Under the pieces are notes generated by a model, which made no database searches, was not told the origin of the DNA, and worked only from the letters and a program-made list of their open reading frames with translations. From assembly GCA_964016885.1 (NCBI GenBank), contig OZ024743.1, positions 23,870,001-23,934,000 of the forward strand: a stretch of 64,000 nt of DNA, in the 5' to 3' direction. The stretch comes from Eledone cirrhosa. Lineage: Eukaryota. Below are positions 22,369-56,117 of this stretch, in pieces (the first letter of the stretch is position 1; every line of letters starts with the position of its first letter). The position numbers and the translations under genes are program-made.

Positions 22369-22540
22369 TGGCAAATGAAAATTTGTCACACCAAAATCAA
22401 TAGCTTGGTGTGATGTAGTATGGTGTGGTTTGGTGAAGTTTCTACAAAGATATCAATGGAAACCTGTCGAAAATGACTAAGTGAAAAAAAAAAGTCAATT
22501 GGTAGCACCTTTAATGTCAGATTGGGTGGTAAGCGCACAC

Positions 22541-22575
<35 letters not shown>

Positions 22576-23245: not shown

Positions 23246-23277
<32 letters not shown>

Positions 23278-25062: not shown

Positions 25063-25094
<32 letters not shown>

Positions 25095-26880: not shown

Positions 26881-26912
<32 letters not shown>

Positions 26913-28698: not shown

Positions 28699-28730
<32 letters not shown>

Positions 28731-28906
28731 GTGCCAAATGAAAATTTGTCACACCAAAATCAATAGCTTGGTGTGATGTAGTATGGTGTGGTTTGGTGAA
28801 GTTTCTACAAAGATATCAATGGAAACCTGTCGAAAATGACTAAGTGAAAAAAAAAAGTCAATTGGTAGCACCTTTAATGTCAGATTGGGTGGTAAGCGCA
28901 CACAAA

Positions 28907-28940
<34 letters not shown>

Positions 28941-29616: not shown

Positions 29617-29651
<35 letters not shown>

Positions 29652-30830
29652 TGCCAAATGAAAATTTGTCACACCAAAATCAATAGCTTGGTGTGATGTA
29701 GTATGGTGTGGTTTGGTGAAGTTTCTACAAAGATAGTCATTTTAGACAGGTTTCCATTGATAAGTGAAAAAAAAAAGTCAATTGGTAGCACCTTTAATGT
29801 CAGATTGGGTGGTAAGCACACACAAAAAAAAAAAAAAAAAAAAAGAAAAGGGAAGAAAATGTTTCACACCAAGATCAATAGCTTGGTGCGATGTAGTATG
29901 GTGTAACTTGGTATGGTGTAGTTTGGTTTGGTGAAGTTATGAAATGGAAACCAATTCTAAACGATAGATTCCCATGTCATATTCATTGATAATGTGGGAA
30001 AATAGTCATTTGCAAGCACCTTTGATGTTAGTTTGGGTGGTAACCACAAAAAAAAAAAAAAAGCAGGTAGCAAATTTGTCACACTGATGTCCATACCATG
30101 GTGTGATGTAAATGATAGGAGTATGTGTTCTGTAATAAATTTACCATAAGATGGTGCTGTTTGATATGGTGTGGTTTGGGATAGATTAATGTGGTGTGGT
30201 GTGCTTTGTTATAAGTAAGGAATTAAATTTCCACTTTGATTTATGTAAGGAAAAAATTTTTTTCCTTCACTTTTGCATGTGCTATCAACTAATACAACTT
30301 CCAAGATGCTTGCAGTAGACTATGGTTTTAGCATATTAACAAAAAATATGACTTCCGCTGCAATAAAAAATGACTAGCTTTGTAAATGGTATTTCCACCC
30401 ACATCCTCCCTCTTTTTTCTACAAAGCTAGTCATTTTCGACAGTTTTCCATGTCATAATTATTGATAATATGTGCGAAAAATAGTCAATTGCAGCACCTT
30501 TGATGTCAGATTGGGTGGTAAGAACACACAAAAAACAAAAAAAGAAACAGGAAGAAAATTTTTCACACTGAGATCAAAAGCATGGTGTGATGTAGAATGG
30601 TGTAGTTTGTTCTGGTGTGGTTTGGATTGTTGTAGTTATGACATGGGAACCTATTGCAAATGATAGGTTTCCATGTTATATCCATTGATAATGTGTAAAA
30701 AAATAGTCATTTGTGAGCACCTTTGATATCAGATTGGGTGGTAAGCACACATACAGAAAAAAAAAAAACAGGAAAAAAAATGTTCTCACTGAGATTAATA
30801 GCATGGTGTGATGTAGTATGGTGTAGTTTG
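17330..30830. repeat. Satellite array: 14 conserved ~910-bp monomers plus degenerate flanking units
   Basis: Anchor ccatttatgtcaaattgggtgg recurs at 17748, 18662, 19578, 20486, 21394, 22303, 23214, 24122, 25031, 25940, 26849, 27758, 28667 and 29585. Each monomer has three poly(A)-ended subrepeats. Confidence 0.97.
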
Positions 30831-30896
30831 ATGTAGTTTAATGTGATATGGTTTTCCAACCTCCGACATGCTCACAGCTGACTATGCTTTTACCAT

Positions 30897-31230
30897 CATC
30901 ATCATCATTTTACGTCCACTTTTCCCTGCTTGCAAGGGTGGGATGGGAACTGATTCTGGCTTGATTTCTACAGCTGGATGCCCTTCCTAACACCAACCTC
31001 ATTTACAGTGAGTGCTGGGTGGTTTTTGCCGTGGCACCTATACAACCACTTTGCAGTGGAATTATAGGGACCCCAGTCCCTATCATCTCATTTCTACAGC
31101 TGAGTAAACTGGAGCAATGTGAAATAAGGTGTCTTGCTCAAGGAAACAACACACCACCTGGTCTGAGAATTGAACTCACAACCTTTCGATTGCAAGGCCA
31201 ATGCTCTAACCACTAAGCCATGTGCCTCCA
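30897..31230 (-). mobile_element. SINE insertion with a 7-bp TSD
   Basis: Same family as 9980-10360. Flanked by ttaccat at 30890-30896 and 31231-31237. Confidence 0.8.
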
Positions 31231-31719
31231 TTACCATATTAACAACAAATATGACTTTCACTGCAATCAAAAATGACAAGCTTTGTGAATGGTATTTCCA
31301 CCCACTTTCCGCCCTCTTTTTTCTACAAAGCTAGTCATTTTCAACAGGTTTCAAAGTCTTCATTGATAATATGTACAAAAAATAGTTAATTGCGAACACT
31401 TTTAATGTCAGATTGGGTGGTAAGCACACACACAAAAAAAGACAAAAAAAAGCAGGTGTGATGTAGTATAGTGTAGTTTGTTATGGTGTGGTTTGGTTTG
31501 GTGTAGTTTGGTATGGTTTAGTTTGGTGTAGTTATAACATGGAAACCTATCATAAATTTACCAAGGTATGGTATAATCTGGTTTGGTGTAGTGTAGGTTA
31601 GTGTGGTGTGGTGTGTTATTGTGTTGCATCGTATAGCGTGATTCTCTTTAAATTAAAATCATTAAAATGTAATGCCTATCTTCTATATCTTAAAGAGTGA
31701 CCTTAAATGTGATTGCAAA

Positions 31720-34700
31720 TGACTTTTTTCTCTGGATTAATGTTAGATTTAGGGTTAGTGTTAGGGTAAGTTTTACTGTTAATGGTAAGTTTATTGTTAG
31801 TGACTGTGTTACTGTTAACATTACTGTCACTGTTAGTGTTACTGTAACTGTTACTCTTACAGTTACTGTTTGCGTTACTGTCTGCATCAGCGTTAGCATT
31901 TGCATAAGCGTCTATGTAAGCTTTTGTGTTAGTGTCTATGTAGACTGGTGTTAGCATCTGCGTTAGTGTTTGCGTAAGTGTCAGCATCTATGTCAGCATT
32001 TGCGTCAGCGTCTGCATTGGTGATAGTGATTGTGTCAGCATTTCCCTTAGCGTCTGAGTTAACATTAGTGTTTGTTTCAGTGCCTACGTCTACGTCAGCT
32101 TCTGAGTCAGCATTATCATTAGCGTCCACGTCAGCACTTGTGTCAGTGTCAGCGTTTGCATCAGCGTGCACGTCAGCATTTGCATTAGTGTTTGAGTCAG
32201 TGTTAGCATCAACGTTTGCATTTGTGTAGGGGTTAGCATTTGCGTCAGCATCTGCATCAGCATTCACATTAGCATTAGCGTTTGCGACAGCGTTTTCTTT
32301 AACGTCTTTGTCAGCATTTCCGTTAGCGTCTGTGTCAGCGTGTACGTTAGCTTCTACGTCAGTGTTTCCGTTAGCGTCTGTGTCAGCGTGTACGTTAGCT
32401 TCTACGTCAGTGTTTCCGTTAGCTTCTACGTCAGTGTTTACGTTAGCTTCTACGTCAGTGTTTCCGTTAGCGTCTGTGTCAGTGTTTCCGTTAGCATCTA
32501 TGTCAGTGTTTACGTTAGCTTCTACGTCAGTGTTTCCGTTAGCGTCTGTGTCAGCGTGTACGTTAGCTTCTACGTCAGTGTTTCCGTTAGCGTCTATGTC
32601 AGTGTTTCCGTTAGCTTCTACGCCAGCGTTTCCGACCGCGTCTGTGGCAGCGTCAGTATTTACATCTACATCAGCGTCAGCGTTTCAGTTAATGTCAGCG
32701 TTTACGTTAGCTTCTACGTCAGCGTTTCCGTAACGTCTGCGTCAGCGTTTTCCGTTAGCATTAGCGTTTCCATCAACCTTTCCTGTGGCGTCCGCATCAA
32801 TGCAGCGTCTGCATATCCCATGTAAGCGTTAACTTCAGCATTTGCGTCAGCGTTAGCGTTAGCCTTAACCCTAGCGTCCGCATCAGCATTTGCATTAGCG
32901 TCAGCATACACGTCAGCGCCTGGCAATACTGCCTCAACATTTGCGTCAGCGTTAGCTTGGCTTTGGCTTCAGCAATCCGCATCAGCAATTGCGTTTTGGA
33001 GATCAGCTTCGGCGGTAAGGGTAAACGCTAACTTCTACGCCTGCTTCTACGTAACAACTACGTCAGCGTTTTGTTAGCTTCTACGTCAGCGTTTACGTTA
33101 GCTTCTACGTCAGCGTCTGTGTCAACGTGTGTTAGCATCTGTGTCAGCGTTTATGTTAGCGTCTGTGTCAGTGTTTATATTAACATCTGCGTCAGTGTTT
33201 ACGTTAGCATCTGTGTTAACGTGTGTTAGCGTCTGTGTCAGCATTTTCATTAGTGTTTGCATCAGTGTTTCCTTTAGCTTCTACGTCAATGTTTACGCCT
33301 GCGTTAAGGTTCACATTAGCATCGCTGTCATCGTTTGCGTCAGCATTTGTGTTTGCTTTAACATCTGCATCAACATTTGCGTCTGTGTTTGCATTAGTGT
33401 CTGCATTTGCTTTAGTGTTTGCATCAGCGCGAGCATTTGTGTCAGTGTCGACGTCAGCGTTAGAGTCTGTGTAGCATTTACATCAGCATGTGCGTCAGAG
33501 TCTTTGTCAGCATTCGCCTTTGCACCTGCATCAGTATTCACGTTAGTGTTTGTGTCAGCGTAAGCGATTGTGTCAACATTTGCGCTAGCGTTTGTGCCAG
33601 CATAGCCATCTTCGTCAGTGTCAGCTTTGGCGTTAGTGTTTCCATTAGTGTTCGTGTTAGTGTTTGTGTTTGATTTTGTATTAGTGTTAGCATTTTTGTT
33701 AGTGTTAGTGTTCAGGTTAGTGTTAGTGTTCAAGTTATGATAGTGTTCATGTTAGTTTTAGTGTTAAGGTTAGTGTTAGAGATTGTGTTAGTGTAAGTGT
33801 TCAGGTTACTGTTAGTGTTCAAGTTAATGTTAGTGTTCAAGTTAATGTTAGTGTTCAAGTTAATGTTAGTGTTAGTGTTAGTTTTAGTGTTAAGGTTAGT
33901 GTTAGAGATTGTGTTAGTGTTAGTATTTGTTTTTGTGTTAGTATCTCTGTTAGCATTAGTGTTTAATGTTTCCATTAATGTTAGTGATTGTGTTAGTGTT
34001 GGTCTTTGTTTTTGTGTTAATGTTAGCATTAGTATTTCTGTTAGTGTTAGCATTAGTGTTTATGTTAGTGTTCAGGTTAATGTTAGCTTAGTTTTCAGGT
34101 TAGAGTTAGTGTTCAAGTTAATGTTAGTTTTAGTGTTGAGGTTAGTGTTAGAGATTGTGTTTGTGTTTGTTTTTTTGTTAATATTTGTGTTAGTATCTCT
34201 GTTAGTGTTATTTTTCGTGTAAGTGTTCAGGTTAGTGTTAGTTTTAGTGTTAAGGTTAGTGTTAGTATTTGTTTTTGTGTTAATATTTGTGTTAGTATCT
34301 CTGTTAGCATTAGTGATTGATGTTTCCATTAGTGTTAGTGATTGTGTTAGCGTTAGTCTTTGTTTTTGTGTTAATGTTAGCATTAGTATTTCTGTTAGTG
34401 TTAGCATGAGTATTTGTGTTAGTGTTCAGGTTAATGTTAGCTTAGTTTTCAGGTTAGAGTTAGTGTTCAAGTTAATGTTAGTTTTAGTGTTAGAGATTGT
34501 GTTTGTGTTAATATTTGTGTTAGTATCTCTGTTAGTGTTAGTTTTCATGTAAGTGTTCAGGTTAGTGTTAGTTTTAGTGTTAAGGTTAGTGTTAGTATTT
34601 GTTTTTGTGTTAATATTTGTGTTAGTATCTCTGTTAGCATTAGTGTTTGATGTTTCCATTAGTGTTAGTGATTGTGTTAGCGTTAGTCTTTGTTTTTGTG

Positions 34701-36020
34701 TTAATGTTAGCATTAATGTTAGCATTAGTATTTCTGTTAGTGTTAGCATTAGTGTTTATGTTAGTGTTCAGGTTAATGTTAGCTTAGTTTTCAGGTTAGA
34801 GTTAGTGTTCAAGTTAATGTTAGTTTTAGTGTTGAGGTTAGTGTTAGAGATTGTGTTTGTGTTTGTTTTTTTGTTAATATTTGTGTTAGTATCTCTGTTA
34901 GTGTTATTTTTCGTGTAAGTGTTCAGGTTAGTGTTAGTGTTAGTTTTAGTGTTAAGGTTAGTGTTAGTATTTGTTTTTGTGTTAATATTTGTGTTAGTAT
35001 CTCTGTTAGCATTAGTGATTGATGTTTCCATTAGTGATTGTGTTAGCGTTAGTCTTTGTTTTTGTGTTAATGTTAGCATTAGTATTTCTGTTAGTGTTAG
35101 CATGAGTATTTGTGTTAGTGTTCAGGTTAATGTTAGCTTAGTTTTCAGGTTAGAGTTAGTGTTCAAGTTAATGTTAGTTTTAGTGTTAGAGATTGTGTTT
35201 GTGTTAATATTTGTGTTAGTATCTCTGTTAGTGTTAGTTTTCGTGTTAAGGTTAGTGTTAGTATTTGTTTTTGTGTTAATATTTGTGTTAGTATCTCTGT
35301 TAGCATTAGTGTTTGATGTTTCCATTAGTGTTAGTGATTGTGTTAGCGTTAGTCTTTGTTTTTGTGTTAAGGTTAGCGTTAATGTTAGCATTAGTATTTC
35401 TGTTAGTGTTAGCATTAGTGTTTATGTTAGTGTTCAGGTTAATGTTAGCTTAGTTTTCAGGTTAGAGTTAGTGTTCAAGTTAATATTAGTTTTAGTGTTA
35501 GTGTTGAGGTTAGTGTTAGAGATTGTGTTAGTGTTTGTTTTTGTGTTAATATTTGTGTTAGTATCTCTGTTAGCGTTAGTGTTTGTTTTAGTGTTGAAGT
35601 TAATGTTAGCTTAGTTTTCTGGTTAGTATCAGTTTTCAGATTAGTGTTTGTGTTAGTGTTACCTTTAGTGTTAGTGCTCAGGCCAGTGTTAATGTTTATG
35701 GTAGTGTTAGTTTTAGTCCTAGTGTTCAGGCTAATGTTTGTGCTAATGTTAGTTTTATTGTAAGTGTTCAGGTTAGTGTTAGTGTTTGTATTAGTGTTTA
35801 CGGTAGTGTTAGTTTTAGGGCTGGTGTTCAGGTTAGTGTTAGTGTCAGTTTTAGTGTTAGTGTTTGTGTTAGTTTTCAGATTTTGTGTTTGTGTTAGTTT
35901 TCATGTTAGCGCTAAGTTCACTGTTAGAGCCTGTGTGAGTGCAAGTGTTAGGGTAAGTTATTTTTAAAGTTCGGTTTTAGCTTAAAGTTAGGTTTTCTAC
36001 TTTCCAGGAAAAAAGTTGAT
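31720..36020. repeat. Hexamer-periodic telomere-like array (TTAGTG/TTAGCG/TCAGCG) with a ~342/354-bp higher-order repeat
   Basis: 6-bp periodicity throughout. Repeated ORFs at 33730, 34072, 34426, 34768 and 35122 are spaced 342, 354, 342 and 354 bp apart. Confidence 0.9.
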
Positions 36021-36339
36021 CCTCTCTAACTTGAGTGGTGTGATATAGTGTGGTAAAGTATAGTGTTTCATAGTCTTGTGTGGTGTTGTCTATTGTTGTA
36101 TAGTGTAGTATGGTATGTTTCATAGAATGGTCTGATGTGAGGTCGTACAGTGTTTCGTAGTGTGGTGTTGGATAATGTGGTATGGTATAATGTTTGTCAG
36201 TGTGGTGTGGTGTGGTGTGGTATGGTATGGTATGGTATGGTATGGTATAGGTTGATGTAGTGTGGCTTAGTTTGATTATAATAATACAAATAATAATAAC
36301 AATAATAATAGTAATAATAATTGTTGTTCTTGTTCATTT

Positions 36340-36675
36340 TCTTTGTCTTCTTCTGTGCCTTTGTTTTCTTCTGTGCCTTTGACTGCTTCTGTGCCTTTGA
36401 CTGCTTCTGTGCCTTTGACTGTTTCTGTGCCTTTGACTGCTTCTGTGCCTTTGACTGCTTCTGTGCCTTTGACTGCTTCTGTGCCTTTGACTGCTTCTGT
36501 GCCTTTGACTGCTTCTGTGCCTTTGTCTTCTTCTGTGCCTTTGTCTTCTTCTGTGCCTTTGACTTCTTCTGTGCCTTTGACTTCTTCTGTGCCTTTGACT
36601 TCTTCTGTGCCTTTGACTTCTTCTGTGCCTTTGACTTCTTCTGTGCCTTTATCTTCTTCTGTGCCTTTATCTTCT
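36340..36675. repeat. 18-bp minisatellite (ttctgtgcctttgactgc variants), ~18 units
   Basis: Directly visible. The minus strand is open in two frames (KAQKKS repeats and KGTEEV repeats). Confidence 0.92.
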
Positions 36676-37180
36676 CCTCTGCCATCTAAATACCAAAAAC
36701 AAAGAATGTAAAACATATATGTTGCCTGTCTCTCAGACTTTACGAAGTGCTGAGGAGATAAAGTTAATTTAAAGAGCAGTGTGCTCATGCACTGTGATCC
36801 TATAATATAGCTTATAAGCTATTTCATAACTAAAAAACAATGTCAAACATCAACAAAAGTATATACAAATATCTTTGAATGTTTAAGTTAAACCTAAATA
36901 GATCGTATCTACAAGTCATTCGGTTAAGACTGAACTAAGATCATATCTATAAATCATTAGGTTTAGACTGAACTGAGATCATACTTTCTTCTTCTTTTCA
37001 TCATCTTCGTTTCCCGTGTCTTCTTTGTCTTTGTTGTCATTTTCATTTTAGTCGTCTGCTTAGTTGTCTTTTTCTTCTTTTCCATCTAAACATAAAAAAA
37101 AATTGTAAACAAATATATAGCTGATCTCTCAGACTTTCACGAAACACCGAGGAGATACAGTTAATATAACGAGTGGGGAG

Positions 37181-37221
<41 letters not shown>

Positions 37222-37544
37222 TAGCATGGTGTTATGTGGTCTGGTGTGGTACAACATGGTGTGATGTGGTGTGGTATGATATGGTGAGGCAGGGGTGGGT
37301 GGGGGGACACAACGTTAGATTAATGTTAACAATACACATGTAGCATCCACATGTGATGAGAAGGGGGAAACAGTGTTTAACTAATTTTAACATTACATGT
37401 CGCATCCATCTACAGGTGAGTTAAGACTGAGGTGTAATCATATGAAAAGGTCAATTTAAAACTACACTGAGATTCTGCTTAAAATGATGGTCAATGAAGT
37501 GTTTACTTACTCAGATCCTTTGAAATAACTTTCTTTCTCTTACT

Positions 37545-38130
37545 GTAACTGGTGTAGTGTAGTGGAGTGTGGTTTAGTGTAGTGGACAGTGGTGTAGTGT
37601 AGTGGAGTGTGGTTTAGTGTAGTGGACAGTGGTGTGGTGTAGTGTAGTAGAGTGGTGTAGTGTATTGTAGTGGTGTAGTGTAGTGTAGTGGAGTGTGGTT
37701 TAGTGTAGTGGACAGTGGTGTGGTTAGTGGAGTGTGGTTCAATGTAGGGTGGGGGATATGGTGTAGTGGAGTGTGGTGGGATGTAGTGTGGTAGCATGTG
37801 GTGTGATGGCATGTGATGTGATATGATGAAATGTGATGTGATGAAATGTGATGTGATGTGATGAAATGTGGTGTGGCGTGGTGAAATGAGGCGAGGTGAG
37901 GTGAAATGAGGCAAGGCGTGGTGAAATGAGGCAAGGCGAGGCGAGGCAAGGCGTGGCGAGGCTTTGCAAGGCAAGGCTTTGCGAGGCGAGGCGAAGCTTT
38001 GCAAGGCGAGGTGAGATGAGGCGAGGTTTTGCGAGGGGAGGTTTTGCGATGCGAGGCGAGGCGAGGCAAGGCTTTGCAAGGCGAGGCGAGGCGTGGCGAG
38101 GCTTTGCGAGGCGAGGCGAGGCGAGATGAG
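37545..38130. repeat. Pentamer-periodic array grading from GTAGT to GTGAT to GCGAG
   Basis: Directly visible 5-bp periodicity. A related (GTGTT)n array lies at 39225-39580. Confidence 0.9.
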
Positions 38131-39195
38131 TTGTGCTATCAACTAATCCAATCTCCAAAATGCTTGAAACTGACTTTTCCCCCCAGGAAAACGGCGGGGT
38201 GAGGTGGTTCCCCCTTCACCCGGATAATCCCTGCTTACTCGGAATTTTCTCTTTGATTCTATTTTCATGCGTTATCAGTGAATATGACTTCCAAACCAGT
38301 CAAAAACAACTAGCTTTGGAGAAAGAGGAGAGGGAGAGGGGAAGAGTTTTGCAGATCTACACCCCACTCACATGTTGTGGGACTTAATCATTTTCGGTAT
38401 ATTTCCTGTCCTATTAATTTCCTGTGCTATTTCCTATGCTATTTCCTATGCTATTTCCTATGCTATTTCCTGTGCTATTTCCTGTGCTATTAATTAATCT
38501 GACCTAGATGCTTCCAATCAACTTATTTCCCTGGGTTAGGTTTAAGGTTTAGTTTTAGGGCTGGGGTAAAGTTTAGGGTGTAGTTTTAGGGTTGGGGTAA
38601 TGTTTAGGGTCTAGTTTTAGGGTTGGGGTAAAGTTTAGGGTTTAGTTTTAGATTTGGGGTAAAGTTTGGGGTTTAGTTTTAGGTTTGGGGTAAAGTTTAG
38701 GGTTTAGTTTTAGGGTTGGGGTAATGTTTAGGGTTTAGTTTTATGGTTGGGGTATAGTTTAGGGTTTAGTTTAAGGGTTGGGGTAATGTTTATATTTAGA
38801 TTTAGCTTGGTTTGGTTTAGATTTAGAGTTTAGGGTTGGGGCTAGATTTAATTTTATGTTTTATTTAGTTTTAGTTTCCAAATCCCAGGAAAAAAAAATT
38901 GATTCAGAGCAACTAAAAGGTCAGATTAGTTGATAGCACTCAAAAGGAGACCGAAGAAAAATCATTAGAGTACATATCTACAAAACGACAATGGTTTTTC
39001 CACCTGCTTTACCCCTCCTTTTTTCTAGAACAACTAATCATTTCCAACTGGTTTGGAGGTCATATTCGTTGATAACATACGAAAAATCTCAGAGAAAACT
39101 CTGGGGTTAAATGAGAGAAGTGCATCCACCTAAGTTTTCCATGAAGAGAGAGTCAATAACAAACATCTTGGAGATCAGATTAGTTGATAACACAT
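38130..39195. mobile_element. Foldback element: diverged ~300-400-bp inverted arms around a 31-bp TTAGGG-containing array
   Basis: gtgctatcaactaatc (38133) pairs with gattagttgataacac (~39178-39193). gttatcagtgaatatgacttccaaaccagt pairs with actggtttggaggtcatattcgttgataac. The core is ~8 copies of ttttagggttggggtaaagtttagggtttag. Confidence 0.7.
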
Positions 39196-39839
39196 GAAAA
39201 AAAGATGAGGAAAAAATTTTGGGTGTTATGTGGTGTGGAGTAGTGTGTTGTGCTGTGTTGTGTGGAGTAGTGTGTTGTGTTGTGTGGAGTAGTGTGTTGT
39301 GTTGTGTTGTGTGGAGTAGTGTGTTGTGTTGTGTGGAGTAGTGTGTTGTGTTGTGTGGAGTAGTGTGTTGTGTTGTGTGGAGTAGTGTGGTGTGTTGTGT
39401 GGAGTAGTGTGGTGTGTTGTGTGGAGTAGTGTGGTGTGTTGTGTGGAGTAGTGTTGTGTTGTGTTGTGTTGTGTTGTGTTGTGTTGTGTTGTGTTGTGTT
39501 GTGTTGTGGAGTGGAGTAGTGTGGTGTAGTGTTGTATGTTTTTATGTGGTGTGGTGAAGTGTGGTGTGATGTGGTGTTGTGCAGTGAGGTTCTTCATCTT
39601 TATCTTTCTCTTCTTCATCTTTGTATTCATCTTCTTTGTTTTGTCTTCCATCTAAACAAAAAAAATATATAAAACATATATGTAGCCAATCTCTCAGACT
39701 TTTACAAAGCTCCAGGGAGATAAATTTAATATAAGTGGTGTGTTCCTGAACAGAGATACTACAAAATAGCTTAAAAGCTATATATATATATATATATACA
39801 CACACATATATATATATATATAAATAAATATAGAAGATT

Positions 39840-40840
39840 ATATTAATAAAAGGAATTCCAACTTTGTCTGATTTACTCGTTTTATTTACAATCCTTTAAA
39901 ATTATAATGGTATTAGAATGAAATAATATAATTTGTATAATTTGAAAATAAATAATAAATAGAGAATAAAGAATAAAGAATAAAGAATAAAGAATAAAGA
40001 ATAAAGAATAAATGAAAAATTGGGGAAAAAGTAATGAAAATGAATATGGAGAAGTGAAAAATAAAATGAAGATTGAAATAAAGTAGGATAAAGTCTATGT
40101 GTGCTATAACCAATCTCAAGGTCAGAAATATGTTGGATAGATTGGTATGAGGAACAAGATGTTAAAATAAGATAATCAAACAAAATGTGTTTGTGTTATA
40201 TAGATGTTGGCCAAATTATAATGGCTGTGTCCGATTCAAGAGATTGAATCGGACACAGCCATTATAATTTGGCCAACATCTATATAACACAAACACATTT
40301 TAATTTACTTGATTTCTGACTTTCAAGTCCCAATTTTAAATCTTGATTTCTCTCTATTAATTTGTTATTTGTTTTCTGCCCTCTTCACTGTATCACCTTA
40401 TATTTATTTTTAAGTTGAGATTGATTATTACACAAACACATTTTGTTTGATTATCTTATTTTAACATCTTGTTCCTCATACCAATCTATCCAACATATTT
40501 CGTTTGTTTGAATTCATATGATTCCAGTTCCTCAGTGAAATAACAACCCAACCAGGAACTGGACATATCAGAGTATTGACAATATTATACACTTCAACAA
40601 CATATATACTTGTCTATACCACACTAATTCGGACTGCCTGAAGAGGTCACAGCCAAAGATGGCTGTCACTGAAATATATATAGCAGTAATAAACGAAGCT
40701 AAATTTTAAACATTTGACTTTTTATTTAACTTTATTTTACATTACTCCGGAGTAACCAAACCAACCTGCGCACTTCGTCGAGTGCTCCAGCCTGCATACT
40801 GAGGTGTTGGTATACAACCAACATATACTCAAAATTTATT
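39840..40840 (+). mobile_element. Penelope-like element remnant with nested inverted repeats
   Basis: Perfect 58-bp hairpin at 40182-40301. A second inverted pair lies at ~40125-40196 / ~40430-40501. A hammerhead motif and AATAAA follow downstream. Confidence 0.6.
40633..40687 (+). ncRNA. Minimal type-I hammerhead ribozyme
   Basis: actgc-CTGAAGA-ggtcacagcc aaagat ggctgtcact-GAAA-tatata-TA-gcagt. Full core, 5-bp stem I, stem II with one mismatch, palindromic helix III. Confidence 0.78.
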
Positions 40841-40864
40841 TATATATATATATATAATATGTTG

Positions 40865-41723
40865 AAAAGATAACACACTAAAGGCTTTATCTCACATAAT
40901 ATCAAGTCTATGATATTTTGATATTTATTTTGAGAACAATACCTTAACATCAGTATGAGTAGCTAGTTATGGCCGGTCTGAACAGAAAGAGCTGAGAGAA
41001 TTCTGGCCGGATACAGCCAGTTTAAATGCTAAAGGGTTAAATTATATTCCAAACACCAGCTTAATTATGAAAAAGTTAGTTAAATCACTCCAAATTCTTG
41101 ATTATTTGAAACATAAACAGCGTCTTTCATTAGAAATATGGATACAAAAGGGTTTATCTACCTAAAAATCTTCCACCATATTTTAAGAATCTTCGTAAGT
41201 TATGTTCCAAATACCAGTTTAATTATGAGAAAGTTAGTTATATTACTAAAACACTCAAAAGTCTTCATAAATTTCGAAATTATTTGAAACTCATAAGCAG
41301 TAACTCTCCTGGTAATGAAAGGATTTAACCTTTAGCATTTACATTACTCTATATATACTCTTGTATTTTTATCTAACATTATATAAAATCTATGAGATTT
41401 TGATATTTATTTTGAGAACAATACTTTAGCATAAATACAAGTGGCCAGTTACAGCTGGTTTCAACAGAAAGAGGTGAGAGAATTCTGGCCAGATACGGCC
41501 AGTTTAAATGCTACAGGGTTAACCCTTTAGCATTTACATTACTCTATATTTTCATGGTAAAGGCTTTACCGCACATAATTATCTCACATAATATCGAATC
41601 TGAGATTTTGATATTATTTATGTTGAGAATAATACCTTCACATCAGTATGAGCAGCCGGTTTGAACAGAAAAAGATGAGCGAATTCTGGTCAGATACAGC
41701 TGGTTTATATGCTAATGGGTTAA
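40865..41723. mobile_element. Cluster of piggyBac-type MITEs joined at TTAA
   Basis: ttaa-cc(c)tttagcattt ... aaatgcta(a/c)aggg-ttaa. The units 41329-41518 and 41523-41719 share the TTAA at 41519-41522. A truncated copy ends at 41036. Confidence 0.75.
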
Positions 41724-42214
41724 GTAAACTGTATTCCTCAATGTTTTATCAATAAAAAATGGAAATATATTCGGTACTAAATATAATTAGAGTGTGACTT
41801 TATTTCTGGAGAATTTATTTACAAATATTCAAGTTTTAAGGAACGGAATCTTGCCTAATTAGAACAAATACATGAAACCTTTTTTTTTTTTCTTCAGATC
41901 TTTCAATTTTTCCAAATATAACATGTTTTGACATAGTTTTGGTATGATTTTACTGGCTTGATAAATGTTTGTATTGAATCATAACAATATAGTGTAGGTT
42001 GAGCTAGATACCCTTTCTAATACCAATCAAAGTAGTTGGTACTAGAAAGAGTATCTAGCTGTAGAAACCATGCCAAAACTGACAGGAATGTATATGAAAT
42101 GTGTCCCCTGTTCTATCTTAGAAAACAGTTGCTCTATTTAAGTATTTTTAACAGAGATAAGTGGATGTAATATTATGGTTATGCCCTTCTTATCACCATC
42201 AGAAATTTGGTGAA

Positions 42215-42590
42215 AAGAGATACAAATGATCTGGAAAAACAAGAGAAGCTTGTCATGGAGTCTGTAAAGTCTAACCACTGTTTAATAAGGATGATACAAA
42301 TGATCTGGGAAAACTAGAGAAGCTTGTCATGGGGTCCGTAAAGTCTAACCACTGTTTAATAAGGATGATACAAATGATCTGGGAAAACTAGAGAAGCTTG
42401 TCATGGGGTCCGTAAAGCTAACTGCTGCTTTAATAAGGATGATACAAATGATCTGGGAAAATTAGAGAAGCTTGTCATGGGGTCCATAAAGCTAACCATT
42501 ACTTTAATAAGGATGATACAAATGATCTTGGAAAACTAGAGAAGCTTGTCATAGGGTCAACAAAGCTAACCACTGCTTTAATAAGGACGA
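42215..42590. repeat. ~74-bp minisatellite, 5 copies
   Basis: gatacaaatgatc recurs at 42219, 42293, 42367, 42441 and 42515. Confidence 0.92.
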
Positions 42591-42847
42591 TGTGCAGTGA
42601 ACCAGAGGGCAATAAATAATTCCGACCTTAACTATCAACGCATCTCTCCAAAAGTAACCAGTATAATAATAACCCCTACCATAGCATTTTGATTCAGATA
42701 TCTACAAACCACTCTCTCCTACTTCTCCAACCCCTGCATACCTTTCTCTCTCTCTCTCCCTCTCCCCTACTTTTCTCTCTTCTTTTTCTACTCTATCTTC
42801 CCCAACAACCCCACTTAAGGGTATTTACATTGTACATTTTACCATTC

Positions 42848-42959
42848 TGCTCTGAGGATACAGTGGTCACAGCATTGGATATTTGAGTTCTGCAAATACT
42901 TGTAAATTTGCACATAGCATAACTTGGCTGTAGTACCACCGTGGAAACATTTGTCAGCA
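42848..42959 (+). ncRNA. Type-I hammerhead ribozyme with an extended stem II
   Basis: tgct-CTGAGGA-tacagtggt...accaccgtg-GAAA-catttg-TC-agca. GUC cleavage triplet; AATAAA lies just downstream. Confidence 0.62.
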
Positions 42960-43151
42960 CACGGAATAAATTACCTTTTTATGATGTCTACCTGTTATTA
43001 TTCATTCTTTATATACACTCCGGAATACAGAAGGATCAGGAACTAAGTTTCTTCAACAATTCTTCCATAACTCATAGAGTAACCTCTCACCGTACGTCAA
43101 CCATATCCAGTGTAGTAATTAACCATTACTACATCTTGGGTAATCCTATAC

Positions 43152-43205
<54 letters not shown>

Positions 43206-43331
43206 AAGTTTTATTTAAATTGTTGGGTTACAACGAGTAAATATTTATAACTGATATAAAAGCACTCAACAAGTATTTGGAGTATATTTACGATAGTAAA
43301 TAAATGGAAACTATATTTATAAAACCATATT

Positions 43332-43395
43332 TATTTCATTATATATATTTCAGGGATATCATATTAAAAATGTTATGCCTTCTTCAGACAAAATA
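43332..43395 (-). ncRNA. Minimal type-I hammerhead ribozyme (left arm of the palindrome)
   Basis: Reverse-complement copy of 43532-43597. Confidence 0.62.
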
Positions 43396-43531
43396 CAATA
43401 TAAACAGTCTTATAAATAGATAGATTTGACATACCTTTCAACTTCATCTTCCATTTAAAAATCAACTTTTAAATGGAAGATGAAGTTGAAAGGTATGTCA
43501 AATTTATCTATTTATAAGACTGTTTATATTG

Positions 43532-43597
43532 TATTTTGTCTGAAGAAGGCATAACATATTTTTAATATGATATCCCTGAAATATATATAATGAAATA
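43532..43597 (+). ncRNA. Minimal type-I hammerhead ribozyme (right arm of the palindrome)
   Basis: tattttgt-CTGAAGA-aggcataacatatt ttt aatatgatatccct-GAAA-tatata-TA-atgaaata. Stem I is 8 bp with two G.U pairs. Confidence 0.65.
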
Positions 43598-43638
43598 AAT
43601 ATGGTTTTATAAATATAGTTTCCATTTATTTAATATCG

Positions 43639-43669
<31 letters not shown>

Positions 43670-43670
<1 letters not shown>

Positions 43671-43917
43671 GCACTACAACGCTATTAGCTGTCAGTCGAA
43701 GCAGCCGATGAAAGCAAAACATCGTTTATTTCCGTATTACTACCACGCGTAAGTGGAGTTACTTAAATGAATTTTTTTTTTTCACGCGTTTTTTATTTTT
43801 TTTTTTATTAAAGCATATAGATGTAAGTGGAGTTACTTAAATGAAAATATAGGTGGCCCTTAAAAGGGCCAAATTAGAATATACCGCTGCGTTTTTACAG
43901 TTTTACTCGTTACACAT

Positions 43918-43950
<33 letters not shown>

Positions 43951-44010
43951 CACACGGTGTCCCCTCCAAAATATATACAAGCTTTGATTACTTTGCTGGG
44001 ACACTGTGTT

Positions 44011-44056
<46 letters not shown>

Positions 44057-44261
44057 GGGAAGGGAGAAATTTTGGGATGCTATACCTGACATAATAAAAA
44101 ACCAAAATACACCCCTAACATTTGTCGGAATATCAATCACGAGAGCAGATAAATAAATATATAAATACATAAATAAGAAATGATAGAAAAGGAAAAGAAA
44201 ATCCCTACATTATGTAATATTCCCAGTCACCCCGACTGACAGCTAATAGCGTTGTAGTGCC
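43670..44261. mobile_element. MITE with 29-bp TIR GGCACTACAACGCTATTAGCTGTCAGTCG (copy 1)
   Basis: Perfect TIRs, flanked by (TA)n. It contains a nested mini-element cacggtgtcc...ggacactgtg. Confidence 0.85.
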
Positions 44262-44364
44262 ATATATATATATAAACATAAACAAAAAAGTTAACCAAGT
44301 TAAAAATGTATTCACTGCGCTACTAATAATATGTTGAAGACATCCGTTGTATTCGTTAGCAACC

Positions 44365-44401
44365 ATGACGACAATACTTCACGCTAAATGCCTTCTATTT
44401 G
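44365..44401 (+). CDS. IFT27: IFT27-like coding exon 1, duplicate copy 1 (MTTILHAKCLLFG)
   Basis: aaccATG start and phase-1 donor G|gtaaat. Identical to the copy at 48871. Confidence 0.6.
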
Positions 44402-45309
44402 GTAAATTGTTTATTTATTTTCCAAGTGTACCAAAAAAATATATCTGCACTCGAATATACATTATGTTGTTGTTTAGTACCAGTTCATTTCCTATCACAC
44501 TTATGATCAAAGGCGTTCCAGAAATCACCATCCCGTTTTCTTTTCAGTCATTGAGTGTGTCCAGAACTTCATTATTTACTGTCATTTTTTTAGGACGGTA
44601 GGGCGTGATTTAGCTACTATGTCTATGAGATTGAGCTACGTCGTAGTGGTAAATTTGTTCAGTGTGTTGAATTTTACATTATCCAATGTGTATTATATTT
44701 TTGTGGAGGTTGAGGGAATGACAATTGAGAAACGATAAAGTATGGAGTTGCTACAGTTGGTGTTACTTATCTTACAAGTTGACAGGTGCACTGTGTCCGA
44801 ACACGGAAGAGCCGAACTCCAACCGTCATCATACCCATCTCTCATATTGACAGCTATTTCTAGCAAGTAGACATCCCTTCGTTGGTTCAGTCAGTATATC
44901 GTGTTGACCGAGAGCGTACATATATTTGGATGTATACAAGATAATGTATATTTATGTGTATGTATATCGGAGTGGGATCGTCTATATATATATATATATA
45001 TATATATATTGATATGAGATCAGATGGTTAGTAGTTTTCCTGCAATATGTGTTGCAAATGGCTACTCTGGGTCTCGAATAATCTCTAGAGAGAGATATAC
45101 AGTGCGCTATCAATAAAACAGGGAAAAAAACACCAGTGTATGGAATCTATAACCTATGAAAGGCAGACTATAGATACGATAATTAAAAATATAAATTAAA
45201 GCGTAAATAAATACCTCTATAACACACGTACCAATCCAAAGATATCTGTTTCGCCAGTAAGTTGTTGACAGAAATGGAATAACCCCGTTTCCTCAGCTTC
45301 AGACAACAC

Positions 45310-45420
45310 TAAGAGAATTTTGGCGCTAAACTTTTCCTTTTGAAAGAAAAATGGCGCCAAACTTTTCCTTTTGAAAGAATAATGTGATTTGTCACGTGAT
45401 TGAGTTCGCGTGATATTACC
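45310..45420. promoter_or_regulatory. Putative promoter motif cluster (E2F-, YY1-, CHR- and E-box-like); second copy at ~47595-47700
   Basis: ttttggcgc and aaaatggcgccaaa, two tttgaa, and gtcacgtga. CpG is retained in an AT-rich background. Confidence 0.4.
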
Positions 45421-45694
45421 TCTAAATATGTGAATACGTACACAGCATTCCCCCCACGAATGGCGAGAGCAAACATATATACACAAACACACCATATATA
45501 TATATATATATACATAAACACACATACATACAATAACGACCAGTACTACGATTCTGGAGGAGCGAATGATGGTGAAGATGAAGCTCTCTGCCGCAGAATA
45601 AATGCCATTTAATTTTAATAATAATACTAATAATATATATATATATAGTTTTGCGAGGTTTTTTTAATATGAAATCGTGTGTCGAAACAAATAT

Positions 45695-45858
45695 TGTTAT
45701 ACTTGGGGAGGGTCATATTTGTGGCAACATTGAGGACCGAATAAATTAGATTACCGATATAAAAGACACAGAAGCGAAAAGCGAAAACCAACCAAACAGT
45801 GAGTGTGTTCTGTTATTAATTCTGGCAATATTACACAAATATGACCCTCCCCAAGTAT

Positions 45859-45862
<4 letters not shown>
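45695..45862. mobile_element. Small MITE with TGT...ACA ends, 29-bp TIR and ATAT TSD (Ginger-like); second copy at 47975-48140
   Basis: atat|tgttatacttggggagggtcatatttgtg ... cacaaatatgaccctccccaagtataaca|atat. Confidence 0.65.
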
Positions 45863-45940
<78 letters not shown>

Positions 45941-45941
<1 letters not shown>

Positions 45942-46188
45942 GCACTACAACGCTATTAGCTGTCAGTCGAAGCAGCCGATGAAAGCAAAACATCGTTTAT
46001 TTCCGTATTACTACCACGCGTAAGTGGAGTTACTTAAATGAATTTTTTTTTTTCACGCGTTCTTTATTTTTTTTTTTATTAAAGCATATAGATGTAAGTG
46101 GAGTTACTTAAATGAAAATATAGGTGGCCCTTAAAAGGGCCAAATTAGAATATACCGCTGCGTTTTTACAGTTTTACTCGTTACACAT

Positions 46189-46223
<35 letters not shown>

Positions 46224-46283
46224 CACACGGTGTCCCCTCCAAAATATATACAAGCTTTGATTACTTTGCTGGGACACTGTGTT

Positions 46284-46337
<54 letters not shown>

Positions 46338-46542
46338 GGGAAGGGAGAAATTTTGGGATGCTATACCTGACATAATAAAAAACCAAAATACACCCCTAAC
46401 ATTTGTCGGAATATCAATCACGAGAGCAGATAAATAAATATATAAATACATAAATAAGAAATGATAGAAAAGGAAAAGAAAATCCCTACATTATGTAATA
46501 TTCCCAGTCACCCCGACTGACAGCTAATAGCGTTGTAGTGCC
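45941..46542. mobile_element. GGCACTACAACG-TIR MITE (copy 2)
   Basis: Same TIRs as 43670-44261. Confidence 0.85.
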
Positions 46543-46645
46543 ATATATATATATAAACATAAACAAAAAAGTTAACCAAGTTAAAAATGTATTCACTGCG
46601 CTACTAATAATATGTTGAAGACATCCGTTGTATTCGTTAGCAACC

Positions 46646-46682
46646 ATGACGACAATACTTCACGCTAAATGCCTTCTATTTG
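46646..46682 (+). CDS. IFT27: IFT27-like coding exon 1, duplicate copy 2
   Basis: Identical 37-nt exon and donor. Confidence 0.6.
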
Positions 46683-48136
46683 GTAAATTGTTTATTTATT
46701 TTCCAAGTGTACCAAAAAAATATATCTGCACTCGAATATACATTATGTTGTTGTTTAGTACCAGTTCATTTCCTATCACACTTATGATCAAAGGCGTTCC
46801 AGAAATCACCATCCCGTTTTCTTTTCAGTCATTGAGTGTGTCCAGAACTTCATTATTTACTGTCATTTTTTTAGGACGGTAGGGCGTGATTTAGCTACTA
46901 TGTCTATGAGATTGAGCTACGTCGTAGTGGTAAATTTGTTCAGTGTGTTGAATTTTACATTATCCAATGTGTATTATATTTTTGTGGAGGTTGAGGGAAT
47001 GACAATTGAGAAACGATAAAGTATGGAGTTGCTACAGTTGGTGTTGTTACTTATCTTACAAGTTGACAGGTGCACTGTGTCCGAACACGGAAGAGCCGAA
47101 CTCCAACCGTCATCATACCCATCTCTCATATTGACAGCTATTTCTAGCAAGTAGACATCCCTTCGTTGGTTCAGTCAGTATATCGTGTTGACCGAGAGCG
47201 TACATATATTTGGATGTATACAAGATAATGTATATTTATGTGTATGTATATCGGAGTGGGATCGTCTATATATATATATATATATATATATATTGATATG
47301 AGATCAGATGGTTAGTAGTTTTCCTGCAATATGTGTTGCAAATGGCTACTCTGGGTCTCGAATAATCTCTAGAGAGAGATATACAGTGCGCTATCAATAA
47401 AACAGGGAAAAAAACACCAGTGTATGGAATCTATAACCTATGAAAGGCAGACTATAGATACGATAATTAAAAATATAAATTAAAGCGTAAATAAATACCT
47501 CTATAACACACGTACCAATCCAAAGATATCTGTTTCGCCAGTAAGTTGTTGACAGAAATGGAATAACCCCGTTTCCTCAGCTTCAGACAACACTAAGAGA
47601 ATTTTGGCGCTAAACTTTTCCTTTTGAAAGAAAAATGGCGCCAAACTTTTCCTTTTGAAAGAATAATGTGATTTGTCACGTGATTGAGTTCACGTGATAT
47701 TACCTCTAAATATGTGAATACGTACACAGCATTCCCCCCACGAATGGCGAGAGCAAACATATATACACAAACACACCATATATATATATATATACATAAA
47801 CACACATACATACAATAACGACCAGTACTACGATTCTGGAGGAGCGAATGATGGTGAAGATGAAGCTCTCTGCCGCAGAATAAATGCTATTTAATTTTAA
47901 TAATAATACTAATAATATATATATATATAGTTTTGCGAGGTTTTTTATATGAAATCGTGTGTCGAAACAAATATTGTTATACTTGGGGAGGGTCATATTT
48001 GTGGCAACATTGAGGACCGAATAAATTAGATTACCGATATAAAAGACACAGAAGCGAAAAGCGAAAACCAACCAAACAGAGTGTGTTCTGTTATTAATTC
48101 TGGCAATATTACACAAATATGACCCTCCCCAAGTAT

Positions 48137-48182
<46 letters not shown>

Positions 48183-48183
<1 letters not shown>

Positions 48184-48767
48184 GCACTACAACGCTATTA
48201 GCTGTCAGTCGAAGCAGCCGATGAAAGCAAAACATCGTTTATTTCCGTATTACTACCACGCGTAAGTGGAGTTACTTAAATGAATTTTTTTTTTTTCACG
48301 CGTTTTTTATTTTTTTTTTATTAAAGCATATAGATGTAAGTGGAGTTACTTAAATGAAAATATAGGTGGCCCTTAAAAGGGCCAAATTAGAATATACCGC
48401 TGCGTTTTTACAGTTTTACTCGTTACACATACACACACATATATATATATATATACACACGGTGTCCCCTCCAAAATATATACAAGCTTTGATTACTTTG
48501 CTGTTGAAGTGTGTATACATTTTTTTGGACACTGTGTTTGTATATATATATATATATATTGGGGAAAGGGAGAAATTTTGGGATGCTATACCTGACATAA
48601 TAAAAAACCAAAATACACCCCTAACATTTGTCGGAATATCAATCACGAGAGTAGATAAATAAATATATAAATACATGAATAAGAAATGATAGAAAAGGAA
48701 AAGAAAATCCCTACATTATGTAATATTCCCAGTCACCCCGACTGACAGCTAATAGCGTTGTAGTGCC
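48183..48767. mobile_element. GGCACTACAACG-TIR MITE (copy 3)
   Basis: Same TIRs. It retains an internal segment (ttgaagtgtgtatacattttttt) that is missing from copies 1 and 2. Confidence 0.85.
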
Positions 48768-48870
48768 ATATATATATATAAACATAAACAAAAAAGTTAA
48801 CCAAGTTAAAAATGTATTCACTGCGCTACTAATAATATGTTGAAGACATCCGTTGTATTCGTTAGCAACC

Positions 48871-48907
48871 ATGACGACAATACTTCACGCTAAATGCCTT
48901 CTATTTG
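48871..48907 (+). CDS. IFT27: IFT27/RABL4 coding exon 1 (proximal copy), MTTILHAKCLLF-G
   Basis: Resembles the IFT27 N-terminus (human MVKLAAKCILAG, from memory). The phase-1 donor joins exon 2 to build the P-loop GSSAVGKT. Confidence 0.82.
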
Positions 48908-49567
48908 GTAAATTGTTTATTTATTTTCCAAGTGTACCAAAAAAATATATCTGCACTCGAATATACATTATGTTGTTGTTTAGTACCAGTTCATTTCCTA
49001 TCACACTTATGATCAAAGGCGTTCCAGAAATCACCATCCCGTTTTCTTTTCAGTCATTGAGTGTGTCCAGAACTTCATTATTTACTGTCATTTTTTTAGG
49101 ACGGTAGGGCGTGATTTAGCTACTATGTCTATGAGATTGAGCTACGTCGTAGTGGTAAATTTGTTCAGTGTGTTGAATTTTACATTATCCAATGTGTATT
49201 ATATTTTTGTGGAGGTTGAGGGAATGACAATTGAGAAACGATAAAGTATGGAGTTGCTACAGTTGGTGTTACTTATCTTACAAGTTGACAGGTGCACTGT
49301 GTCCGAACACGGAAGAGCCGAACTCCAACCGTCATCATACCCATCTCTCATATTGACAGCTATTTCTAGCAAGTAGACATCCCTTTGTTAGATCAGTCAG
49401 TATATCGTGTTGACCGAGAGCATACATATATTTGGATGTATACAAGATAATGTATATTTATGTGTATGTATATCAGAGTGCGATCGTCTCTATATATATA
49501 TATATGCATATATATATTATGAGATCAGATGGTTAGTAGCTTTCCTGCAATATGTGTTGCAAATGGC

Positions 49568-49867
49568 TACTCTGGGTCTCGAATATCCCCCCTCACTGGG
49601 TAATTTTTCAGATTCCCCCCTCTCCGCTTATTAAATTTTGCTAATCCATCTCTAGTGAAAATTTTTGGTAGCATTCCCGCGACAATTTTCTTTATACATT
49701 AAAGAATATTTTATACATTACAAAAAAAAATAATTAATTACTGGAAATCCTATACGTTATAAAATAAATAGGATGGTTTGGGACTAAACGACTAATTCTA
49801 GAAAAATTACCGACCCCCCCCCCCCTCGCTTATTCCAACCACGCCAATTATTTGGAACCCAGGAGTA
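49568..49867. mobile_element. Old non-autonomous DNA element with degenerate TIRs
   Basis: tactctgggtctcgaata ... tatttggaacccaggagta. Confidence 0.45.
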
Positions 49868-52104: not shown

Positions 52105-52184
52105 GTAGTTCAGCTGTTGGAAAGACTTCACTTTGTCAAACATTTCATAACGATGGCACAAATTTATCTAAAAACTATAATATG
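52105..52184 (+). CDS. IFT27: IFT27/RABL4 exon 2 (G-SSAVGKTSLCQTFHNDGTNLSKNYNM)
   Basis: tttctattttatag acceptor and gtttgt donor. Contains the P-loop GxxxxGKT and the IFT27-typical F-x-x-DG-x-x-x-x-K-x-Y segment. Confidence 0.9.
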
Positions 52185-55055: not shown

Positions 55056-55115
55056 ACAACAAATGTGGATATTGTTGTGAAATCTGTCCGAGTTCCCGGT
55101 ACACGATACAGTGTT
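55056..55115 (+). CDS. IFT27: IFT27/RABL4 exon 3 (TTNVDIVVKSVRVPGTRYSV)
   Basis: ttcttttgtag acceptor, gtaagt donor, 60 nt, phase 0. Matches human [20 protein letters not shown] (from memory). Confidence 0.9.
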
Positions 55116-56057: not shown

Positions 56058-56117
56058 GAATTTATTATGTTTGATACGCCATCAAAAGATTGCTATTCAG
56101 AATTTATACAAAATTTT
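56058..56117 (+). CDS. IFT27: IFT27/RABL4 exon 4 (EFIMFDTPSKDCYSEFIQNF)
   Basis: ttgttttacag acceptor, gtaagt donor, 60 nt, phase 0. Aligns to human [20 protein letters not shown] (from memory). Later exons were not found in the window. Confidence 0.85.

What the first reader, a model, noticed from the sequence alone, without database searches (positions are those of the whole stretch)
43641..49585. First coding exon and upstream region of an IFT27-like gene are tandemly triplicated in front of a single gene body
Seen: three identical 37-nt ATG exons with intact GT donors (44365, 46646, 48871) lie in ~2.25-kb units, while exons 2-4 occur once. The copies are not identical. Copies 1 and 2 share a MITE-internal deletion and SNPs absent from copy 3, and copy 2 has a private gtt insertion near 47043. 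This argues against a simple assembly stutter. Established: IFT27 is the Rab-like GTPase of the IFT-B complex. Inference: any exon-1 copy could splice to exon 2 and give the same protein, so this would amplify the promoter and first exon without duplicating the gene.
Basis: partly seen in the sequence, partly recalled or inferred. Interest (0 to 1): 0.75.

Follow-up and report, generated by a model that had tools for sequence, protein, structure and literature searches.

The report
Octopus IFT27 with three first exons
An octopus gene for the cilia-transport protein IFT27 has three near-identical copies of its first exon, each behind a piece of a giant jumping element, ahead of one intact gene body; this likely arose from a recent copying accident and would at most change how much of the same protein is made, a layout already known from plants and flies.

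Summary
Confirmed. Three identical 37-nt ATG exons with GT donors (44365, 46646, 48871) precede one seven-exon, stop-free IFT27 gene (187 aa, 160/187 identical to Octopus bimaculoides IFT27). The short-read contig over exon 1 is about 3 times deeper than unique flanks (2.9-3.2 pooled, 2.2-4.2 per run), so a single-copy or 2+1 haplotype-stitching artefact is unlikely. A contig from an RNA-like run joins exons 1-2-3 but cannot say which copy is used. Correction: little native promoter is amplified. Only 103 bp of non-transposon DNA precede each ATG. The rest is the end and an inner piece of a giant (24-40 kb) Merlin-type transposon family that covers 83% of the 42.6 kb upstream. All three copies share 1.41 kb; a 0.78-kb transposon spacer occurs twice. 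The junction has 3-4 bp microhomologies. Likely history: a microhomology-mediated tandem duplication, then a recent unequal crossover, with homogenisation around exon 1. Arabis PEP1 and Drosophila hydra have the same layout. Use of the upstream copies is untested. The giant Merlin family is the more unusual by-catch.

The parts
1627..44261 (.). Rearranged, nested complex of a giant Merlin-type TIR transposon family (no transposase found in this copy); its last terminus lies 103 bp before the first IFT27 ATG
   Evidence: 83% covered by family loci elsewhere; termini listed; no tblastn hit of the family transposase in the window
43283..43646 (.). 364-bp palindromic high-copy element between TA runs, upstream of copy 1 only
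43670..44261 (.). Copy 1 of the short two-TIR derivative (563 bp of the element's end, inverted, plus about 30 bp of terminus); 8-bp flanks match 7/8
44262..44364 (+). Copy 1 of the 103-bp non-transposon proximal region / 5' UTR
   Evidence: the equivalent of 44290 onward is covered by the RNA-like contig
44365..44401 (+). IFT27 coding exon 1, copy 1 (37 nt, GT donor; intron to exon 2 would be 7703 nt)
44402..45080 (+). Duplicated start of intron 1, copy 1
45081..45088 (+). Duplication junction 1: 62-bp loss at an ATC microhomology, then a CTAG microhomology join into the transposon interior
   Evidence: sequence at 49586-49655
45085..45862 (.). Spacer 1: inner piece of the giant element (45085-45647) plus a high-copy small TIR element (45646-45866), then (TA)38; four AATAAA hexamers on the + strand
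45941..46542 (.). Copy 2 of the short two-TIR derivative
46646..46682 (+). IFT27 coding exon 1, copy 2 (GT donor; intron to exon 2 would be 5422 nt)
47365..48140 (.). Junction 2 and spacer 2 (2 substitutions and 3 two-base indels against spacer 1)
48183..48767 (.). Copy 3 of the short two-TIR derivative; keeps the ancestral 23 bp that copies 1 and 2 lost
   Evidence: 14 of 14 printed family rows carry it
48871..48907 (+). IFT27 coding exon 1, copy 3, contiguous with the gene body (intron 3197 nt)
49586..49655 (+). Right breakpoint region: 62 bp kept only in copy 3 (ancestral in its repeat family), followed by the octamer that is reused at the junctions
52105..52184 (+). IFT27 exon 2 (single copy)
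55056..55115 (+). IFT27 exon 3
56058..56117 (+). IFT27 exon 4 (exons 5-7 lie beyond the window in L013)

Best explanation
This is a three-copy tandem array of IFT27 exon 1 with 103 bp of host upstream DNA and flanking transposon pieces ahead of one intact gene body, likely made by a microhomology-mediated tandem duplication followed by a recent unequal crossover, and likely near-neutral because every copy would give the same mRNA and protein. Steps: (1) shown: the ATG sits 103 bp from a terminus of a giant Merlin-type element complex. (2) Inferred: a repair or replication template switch joined intron 1 (CTAG at 49652-55, after a 62-bp loss at an ATC microhomology) to the CTAG that opens the element's inner piece, giving two copies now 0.8% apart. 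(3) Inferred: unequal crossing over then made copies 1 and 2 (3 substitutions in about 2190 bases). (4) Inferred: gene conversion homogenised about 700 bp across exon 1. (5) Shown: exon 1 is spliced to exons 2 and 3. Inferred: copy 3 keeps the original gene working, and copies 1 and 2 probably also start some transcripts (about 55%), since their core region is identical. Those transcripts must cross several poly(A) hexamers and the downstream start sites, so output is unlikely to be simply tripled.
For: Depth of the 761-bp exon-1 contig is 26.5 (X1) and 21.1 (X3), against 4.8-7.8 and 5.3-10.9 for the 7 flanking contigs listed per run; pooled ratio 2.9-3.2. The contig matches copy 1 with 0 differences in X1 and X2 and differs from copy 3 at 5 places, as a 2:1 majority would give. 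Flanking contigs show 0 differences in X1 and 1 in X3 over about 2.8 kb each, so the copy-3 divergence is not this sample's haplotype difference. Both lineages carry derived changes against the repeat family. Junction microhomologies. One other family copy (L021) has the same design, element end plus 527 bp of flank duplicated with a 5-bp microhomology. Intact 187-codon frame. Spliced contig from 75 nt upstream of the ATG through exon 3. Precedents with proven use of upstream copies: PEP1, hydra.
Against: Contig depth is a rough measure (the tool warns that it is no copy number). Per-run ratios range from 2.2 to 4.2, and X3 against its deepest flank gives 1.9, so two copies per haplotype is not excluded. 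The deep sample may be the assembly's own source, so nothing is known about other individuals. No read or contig spanning a junction was seen; the tables were cut. The spacer is missing before copy 1, which a simple tandem duplication does not explain without a later replacement or an exchange between two alleles. The conversion tract rests on a post-hoc gap test (P 0.01-0.03). No RNA evidence distinguishes the copies.
Confidence: 0.68

Rival explanations
1. The locus really has two copies per haplotype; copies 1 and 2 are the two alleles of one upstream copy, laid in tandem by the assembler.
For: Copies 1 and 2 differ by only 3 substitutions, one 3-bp insertion and microsatellite lengths, about allelic level. 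The X3 depth ratio is 2.2-2.5. The (TA)38 and (TA)20 runs at the unit borders are hard to assemble.
Against: The pooled ratio is 2.9-3.2 and X1 alone gives 4.0-4.2. The contig takes the copy-1/2 allele in all three runs laid. There is no gap or N in the window.
Confidence: 0.13
2. The transposon drives the duplication: breaks or one-ended transposition at the Merlin terminus repeatedly copy the element end together with the flanking host DNA, here the first exon.
For: Each unit starts at a terminus. L021 shows the same end-plus-flank duplication. 4 of 35 loci hit by the spacer have tandem hits 2-3 kb apart, against 0 of 40 for a LINE control. Transposase-bearing relatives exist.
Against: The novel junction is inside the element and inside the intron, not at a terminus. 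Without this window the excess is 3 of 34 vs 0 of 40, Fisher P 0.09. L022 and L023 duplicate element interior without a repeated flank. 0 of 3 further same-orientation end pairs were end-plus-flank duplications.
Confidence: 0.12
3. Whole artefact: one copy per haplotype, or 2+1 haplotypes stitched in tandem.
For: Copy 3 differs from copies 1/2 by 0.8%, a level that alleles can reach (general knowledge). No junction-spanning read was seen.
Against: The expected depth ratio is 1.0-1.5; observed 2.2-4.2. The flanks are almost homozygous in the same sample. The junction is a non-homologous join that occurs twice with small differences.
Confidence: 0.04
4. The downstream copies act as internal exons: an AG 5 nt before each ATG would let exon 1 splice to the next exon 1 as a 42-nt in-frame exon, adding 14-residue repeats to the N-terminus.
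For: The AG at 46639-40 and the frame are read from the sequence (exon 46641-46682 is 42 nt).
Against: The tract is weak: 8 T in 22 nt against 13, 13 and 16 at the real acceptors of exons 2-4. The RNA-like contig runs through this AG into upstream genomic sequence.
Confidence: 0.03

Closest known systems
Arabis alpina PEP1 (PMC3527215; passages read)
   Same: [quoted passage not shown]
   Different: PEP1 has two copies with highly diverged upstream DNA and shown differential expression. Here there are three very young copies with identical proximal DNA that is mostly transposon, and use is not shown.
Drosophila melanogaster hydra, CG1338 (PMC1904467; passages read)
   Same: Tandem first coding exons amplified with flanking transposon fragments (DINE-1); the authors favour unequal crossing over rather than transposition.
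   Different: hydra is a young testis gene with nine copies, at least four shown active by RACE, and the transposon lies 3' of the exon. Here the gene is ancient and conserved, and the transposon lies 5' as well.
IFT27/RABL4 (O. bimaculoides and Argonauta hians homologues P0004, P0005; Chlamydomonas-type structure entries 8ruy_Q, 2yc2_C)
   Same: 160/187 and 149/187 identity; gap-free alignment to 8ruy_Q over the N-terminal 100 residues, where Rab8 and Rab6 need gaps.
   Different: The cephalopod proteins read GxSAVGKT and DTPS at the G1 and G3 boxes, where the solved IFT27 has GEATVGKS and DTAG.
Merlin superfamily DNA transposons (PMC8101967; passages read)
   Same: 5'-GG termini, 8-bp target duplications, and a DDE_Tnp_IS1595 transposase about 0.5 kb inside one end.
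   Different: The copies here are 24-40 kb, with LINE fragments and tandem arrays as cargo; the window's copy has no transposase.

Membership tests
Duplicated alternative first exons on one gene body (PEP1/hydra type) | Tandem copies of exon 1 with proximal upstream DNA and part of intron 1 | tested here: met
Duplicated alternative first exons on one gene body (PEP1/hydra type) | Single intact downstream gene body | tested here: met
Duplicated alternative first exons on one gene body (PEP1/hydra type) | Copies are real DNA, not an assembly error | tested here: met
   Depth ratio 2.2-4.2, pooled 2.9-3.2; more than one copy is firm, exactly three is likely
Duplicated alternative first exons on one gene body (PEP1/hydra type) | More than one copy starts transcripts that splice to exon 2 | tested here: inconclusive
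   A spliced contig exists, but the copies are identical for 193-352 nt upstream and at least 400 nt downstream of the ATG
Duplicated alternative first exons on one gene body (PEP1/hydra type) | Differential expression or copy-number polymorphism among individuals | not testable with these tools
   The RAD runs of other individuals have almost no cover over exon 1
IFT27/RABL4 | Orthology to named IFT27 proteins | tested here: met
   All 3 hits are named IFT27 homolog; 86% identity over the full length. The PDB ranking alone is close: IFT27 is first for P0005, but four Rab8A rows rank above it for P0004
IFT27/RABL4 | Binds IFT25 and works in IFT-B | not tested
   Established knowledge; PMC5145144 passages describe the IFT/BBSome role of IFT27
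Merlin transposons | TIRs with 5'-GG ends | tested here: met
   The 28-bp terminus has 276 exact matches, 143 forward and 133 reverse, 0 in the control
Merlin transposons | 8- or 9-bp target-site duplication | tested here: met
   9 of 9 long elements tested match at 7/8 or better, 7 exact (in two of them an inner nested left end matched only 4/8); the window's short derivative matches 7/8
Merlin transposons | DDE_Tnp_IS1595 transposase inside the element | tested here: met
   PF12762 hits lie 0.4-0.8 kb inside at least 8 of the first 100 listed termini, with frames of 204-303 aa; absent from the window's own copy

The most novel reading that the evidence does not exclude
Ends of giant Merlin transposons seed duplications of the element end plus neighbouring host DNA. 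Here this multiplied the first exon of an ancient ciliary gene whose native upstream DNA had been pushed 42 kb away, so that IFT27 now runs from three transposon-backed start modules kept uniform by gene conversion.
Probability: 0.13. Interest if true: 0.65.

Novelty: new member of a known kind. Interest (0 to 1): 0.33.

Why it matters
As a finding it is a very young example of how multi-first-exon genes begin, with the breakpoint, the order of the two duplications and the source of the flanking DNA still readable. It makes no new protein, and the design is known (PEP1, hydra; this scan's notes list several older animal cases, unchecked). It would matter more if the upstream copies are active or vary between individuals, or if the transposon end works as the promoter. 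The giant Merlin family found on the way (24-40 kb, with cargo) may deserve its own study.

Tried and rejected
Exon-2 peptide alone against the PDB: only unrelated weak hits. No RNA holder was listed by the run search; X4's kind is not on record, and I call it RNA-like only because its contig joins exons. RAD-seq raw reads X10 and X11 gave almost no cover of exon 1 and are uninformative. X2 has the same contig at depth 22.1, but no flank baseline was laid for it, so it is left out of the ratio. Helitron, LTR and CACTA readings of the upstream element were considered and dropped once 8-bp target duplications and an IS1595-type transposase appeared. The short two-TIR piece as a dispersed MITE family: its exact inner junction occurs only in the three copies, although other short derivatives of 0.7-1.2 kb exist. 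A full X-box (consensus recalled, not from a call): 0 matches in the window; only a half-site 8 nt before the ATG, with 13 such half-sites in the window, so it is not used as evidence. A general end-plus-flank duplication rule for the element: not supported. Literature searches (0 papers) listed no report on this locus; searches listed no paper on giant Merlin elements. The library lacks most subscription journals, and I read no supplements; listings only. Look-ups of earlier findings by place and by sequence were empty.
Full report
Observation. A genome search found three full-length copies of exon 1 plus its intron start among 40 scored candidates, all here, and one copy of exon 2. The layout is A-B, spacer, A-B, spacer, A-B, gene body. 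A is a short two-TIR element of about 593 bp; B is 818 bp made of 103 bp upstream, exon 1 and intron start; the 0.78-kb spacer occurs only twice. Copies 1 and 2 differ by 1 substitution in A, none in B (plus the 3-bp insertion), and 2 in the spacer. Copy 3 differs from copy 1 by 11 substitutions in about 1380 bases and keeps 23 bp that copies 1 and 2 lost; all 14 family rows printed carry these 23 bp.

The gene. The open frame around exon 2 found three proteins, all named IFT27 homolog (Octopus bimaculoides, two forms; Argonauta hians). tblastn placed exons 1-4 in the window and exons 5-7 in L013, about 10-14 kb past its end. The seven exons give 187 codons without an internal stop, 160/187 identical to the O. 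bimaculoides protein, with AG/GT flanks. Against solved structures the Argonauta protein ranks IFT27 first and aligns without gaps over its N-terminal half; for the O. bimaculoides protein four Rab8A rows rank marginally above IFT27.

Is it real? Short-read contigs of sample S1 hold a 761-bp contig over exon 1 that matches copy 1 without a difference (X1, X2) and differs from copy 3 at five places (X1, X3). Its depth is 26.5 and 21.1, against 4.8-7.8 and 5.3-10.9 for the seven flanking contigs listed per run; ratios are 4.0-4.2, 2.2-2.5 and, pooled, 2.9-3.2. The table lists only the longest pieces, contig depth is rough, and S1 may be the assembly's source. Still, one copy (ratio 1) or 2+1 stitched haplotypes (1.5) do not fit, and the flanks show only one difference in about 2.8 kb per run, far below the copy-3 divergence. 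Two copies per haplotype is not excluded. I saw no contig across a junction.

Expression. In X4 (sample S2, kind not on record) one 252-nt contig joins 48796-48906, exon 2 and exon 3, so the gene is spliced and its RNA reaches at least 75 nt upstream of the ATG, 29 nt from the transposon end. The copies are identical over this stretch, so the source copy is unknown.

What the upstream DNA is. The spacer's first 563 bp are an inner piece of a dispersed family. Following it showed that A is that family's end and that 83% of window 1627-44261 is covered by the family's other copies. The 28-bp terminus has 276 exact matches. All 9 long elements tested (23.6-40 kb) have 8-bp target duplications, 7 exact and 2 at 7/8. 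IS1595-type transposase hits lie 0.4-0.8 kb inside at least 8 of the first 100 listed termini. GG ends, 8-bp duplications and this domain define Merlin (PMC8101967, passages). The window's copy has no transposase hit and carries LINE reverse-transcriptase pieces. So only 103 bp of host DNA precede each ATG, and distal host regulatory DNA is not multiplied.

Origin (inferred). Copy 3 continues into 62 bp that are ancestral in their own repeat family and then an octamer ending in CTAG, which is specific to this locus. Copies 1 and 2 skip the 62 bp at an ATC microhomology and join at CTAG to the element's inner piece. This is the pattern of microhomology-mediated tandem duplication (established knowledge; listing only). 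The near-identity of copies 1 and 2 points to a later unequal crossover. Copies 1 and 3 are identical over 708 bp across exon 1 but diverged on both sides (gap test P 0.01-0.03, post hoc), which suggests conversion. The absence of the spacer before copy 1 is unexplained; an exchange between two alleles with different upstream insertions, or a later replacement, would account for it. One other family copy, L021, has its end, target site and 527 bp of flank duplicated with a 5-bp microhomology, but three more candidates were not of this kind and the excess of tandem loci is not significant (3 of 34 vs 0 of 40, P 0.09). I therefore prefer ordinary repair and recombination over transposase action.

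Function (inferred). Copy 3 leaves the gene whole. Copies 1 and 2 have the same core region and donors, and no strong acceptor lies before the downstream exon-1 copies, so their transcripts would splice to exon 2 over 7.7 and 5.4 kb and give the same mRNA. They must pass several AATAAA hexamers and downstream start sites. The likely effect is a modest change in dose, or none.

Comparison. Arabis alpina PEP1 has a 2-kb duplication of exon 1, promoter part and intron part, with both exons spliced to one exon 2 (PMC3527215, passages). Drosophila hydra has nine first exons amplified with transposon fragments, probably by unequal crossing over (PMC1904467, passages). Unchecked notes of this scan describe similar, older cases in other animals, two in octopus. 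The finding is a new, very young member of this kind. Verdict: real, ordinary in design, function unproven; interest 0.33.

Noticed in passing
window 1627-44261; G000 C2:282117300-282141347, C1:155773155-155798795, C4:113167263-113207520 and others: Family of giant Merlin-type transposons, 24-40 kb, with 8-bp target duplications, 276 exact terminus matches, LINE fragments and tandem arrays as cargo; some copies keep a 204-303 aa IS1595-type transposase frame near one end. Three paper searches listed nothing comparable. Probably more novel than the finding itself.
   Followed up: partly
L021 (G000 C4:113167263-113171060): Tandem duplication of the element's end, its target site and 527 bp of flank with a 5-bp microhomology; same design as the IFT27 unit.
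   Followed up: yes
window 17350-30854: Array of about 15 units of about 909 bp inside the giant element; L022 holds a much shorter run of the same unit.
   Followed up: partly
window 44306 and 44331 (same in each copy): Two upstream ATGs inside the RNA-covered 5' UTR: a 6-codon frame and an 18-codon frame that overlaps the IFT27 start out of frame (read from the sequence; positions).
   Followed up: no
window 52105-52125 and 56073-56084: Cephalopod IFT27 has GxSAVGKT and DTPS at the G1 and G3 boxes instead of the DTAG of the solved IFT27; shared with O. bimaculoides and Argonauta, so it is lineage-wide and may affect GTPase behaviour.
   Followed up: no
window about 60150-63930: Apparently full-length LINE in intron 4; a 401-bp piece has 40 of 40 scored matches at 100% identity elsewhere, so the family is very young.
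   Followed up: partly
window 40031-40505: Inverted repeat centred near 40243 (read), in a stretch not covered by the other family copies.
   Followed up: no
window 31929-36818: Long simple-repeat tracts (12-48 bp units) with stop-free frames of up to 251 aa, not covered by the family loci fetched.
   Followed up: no
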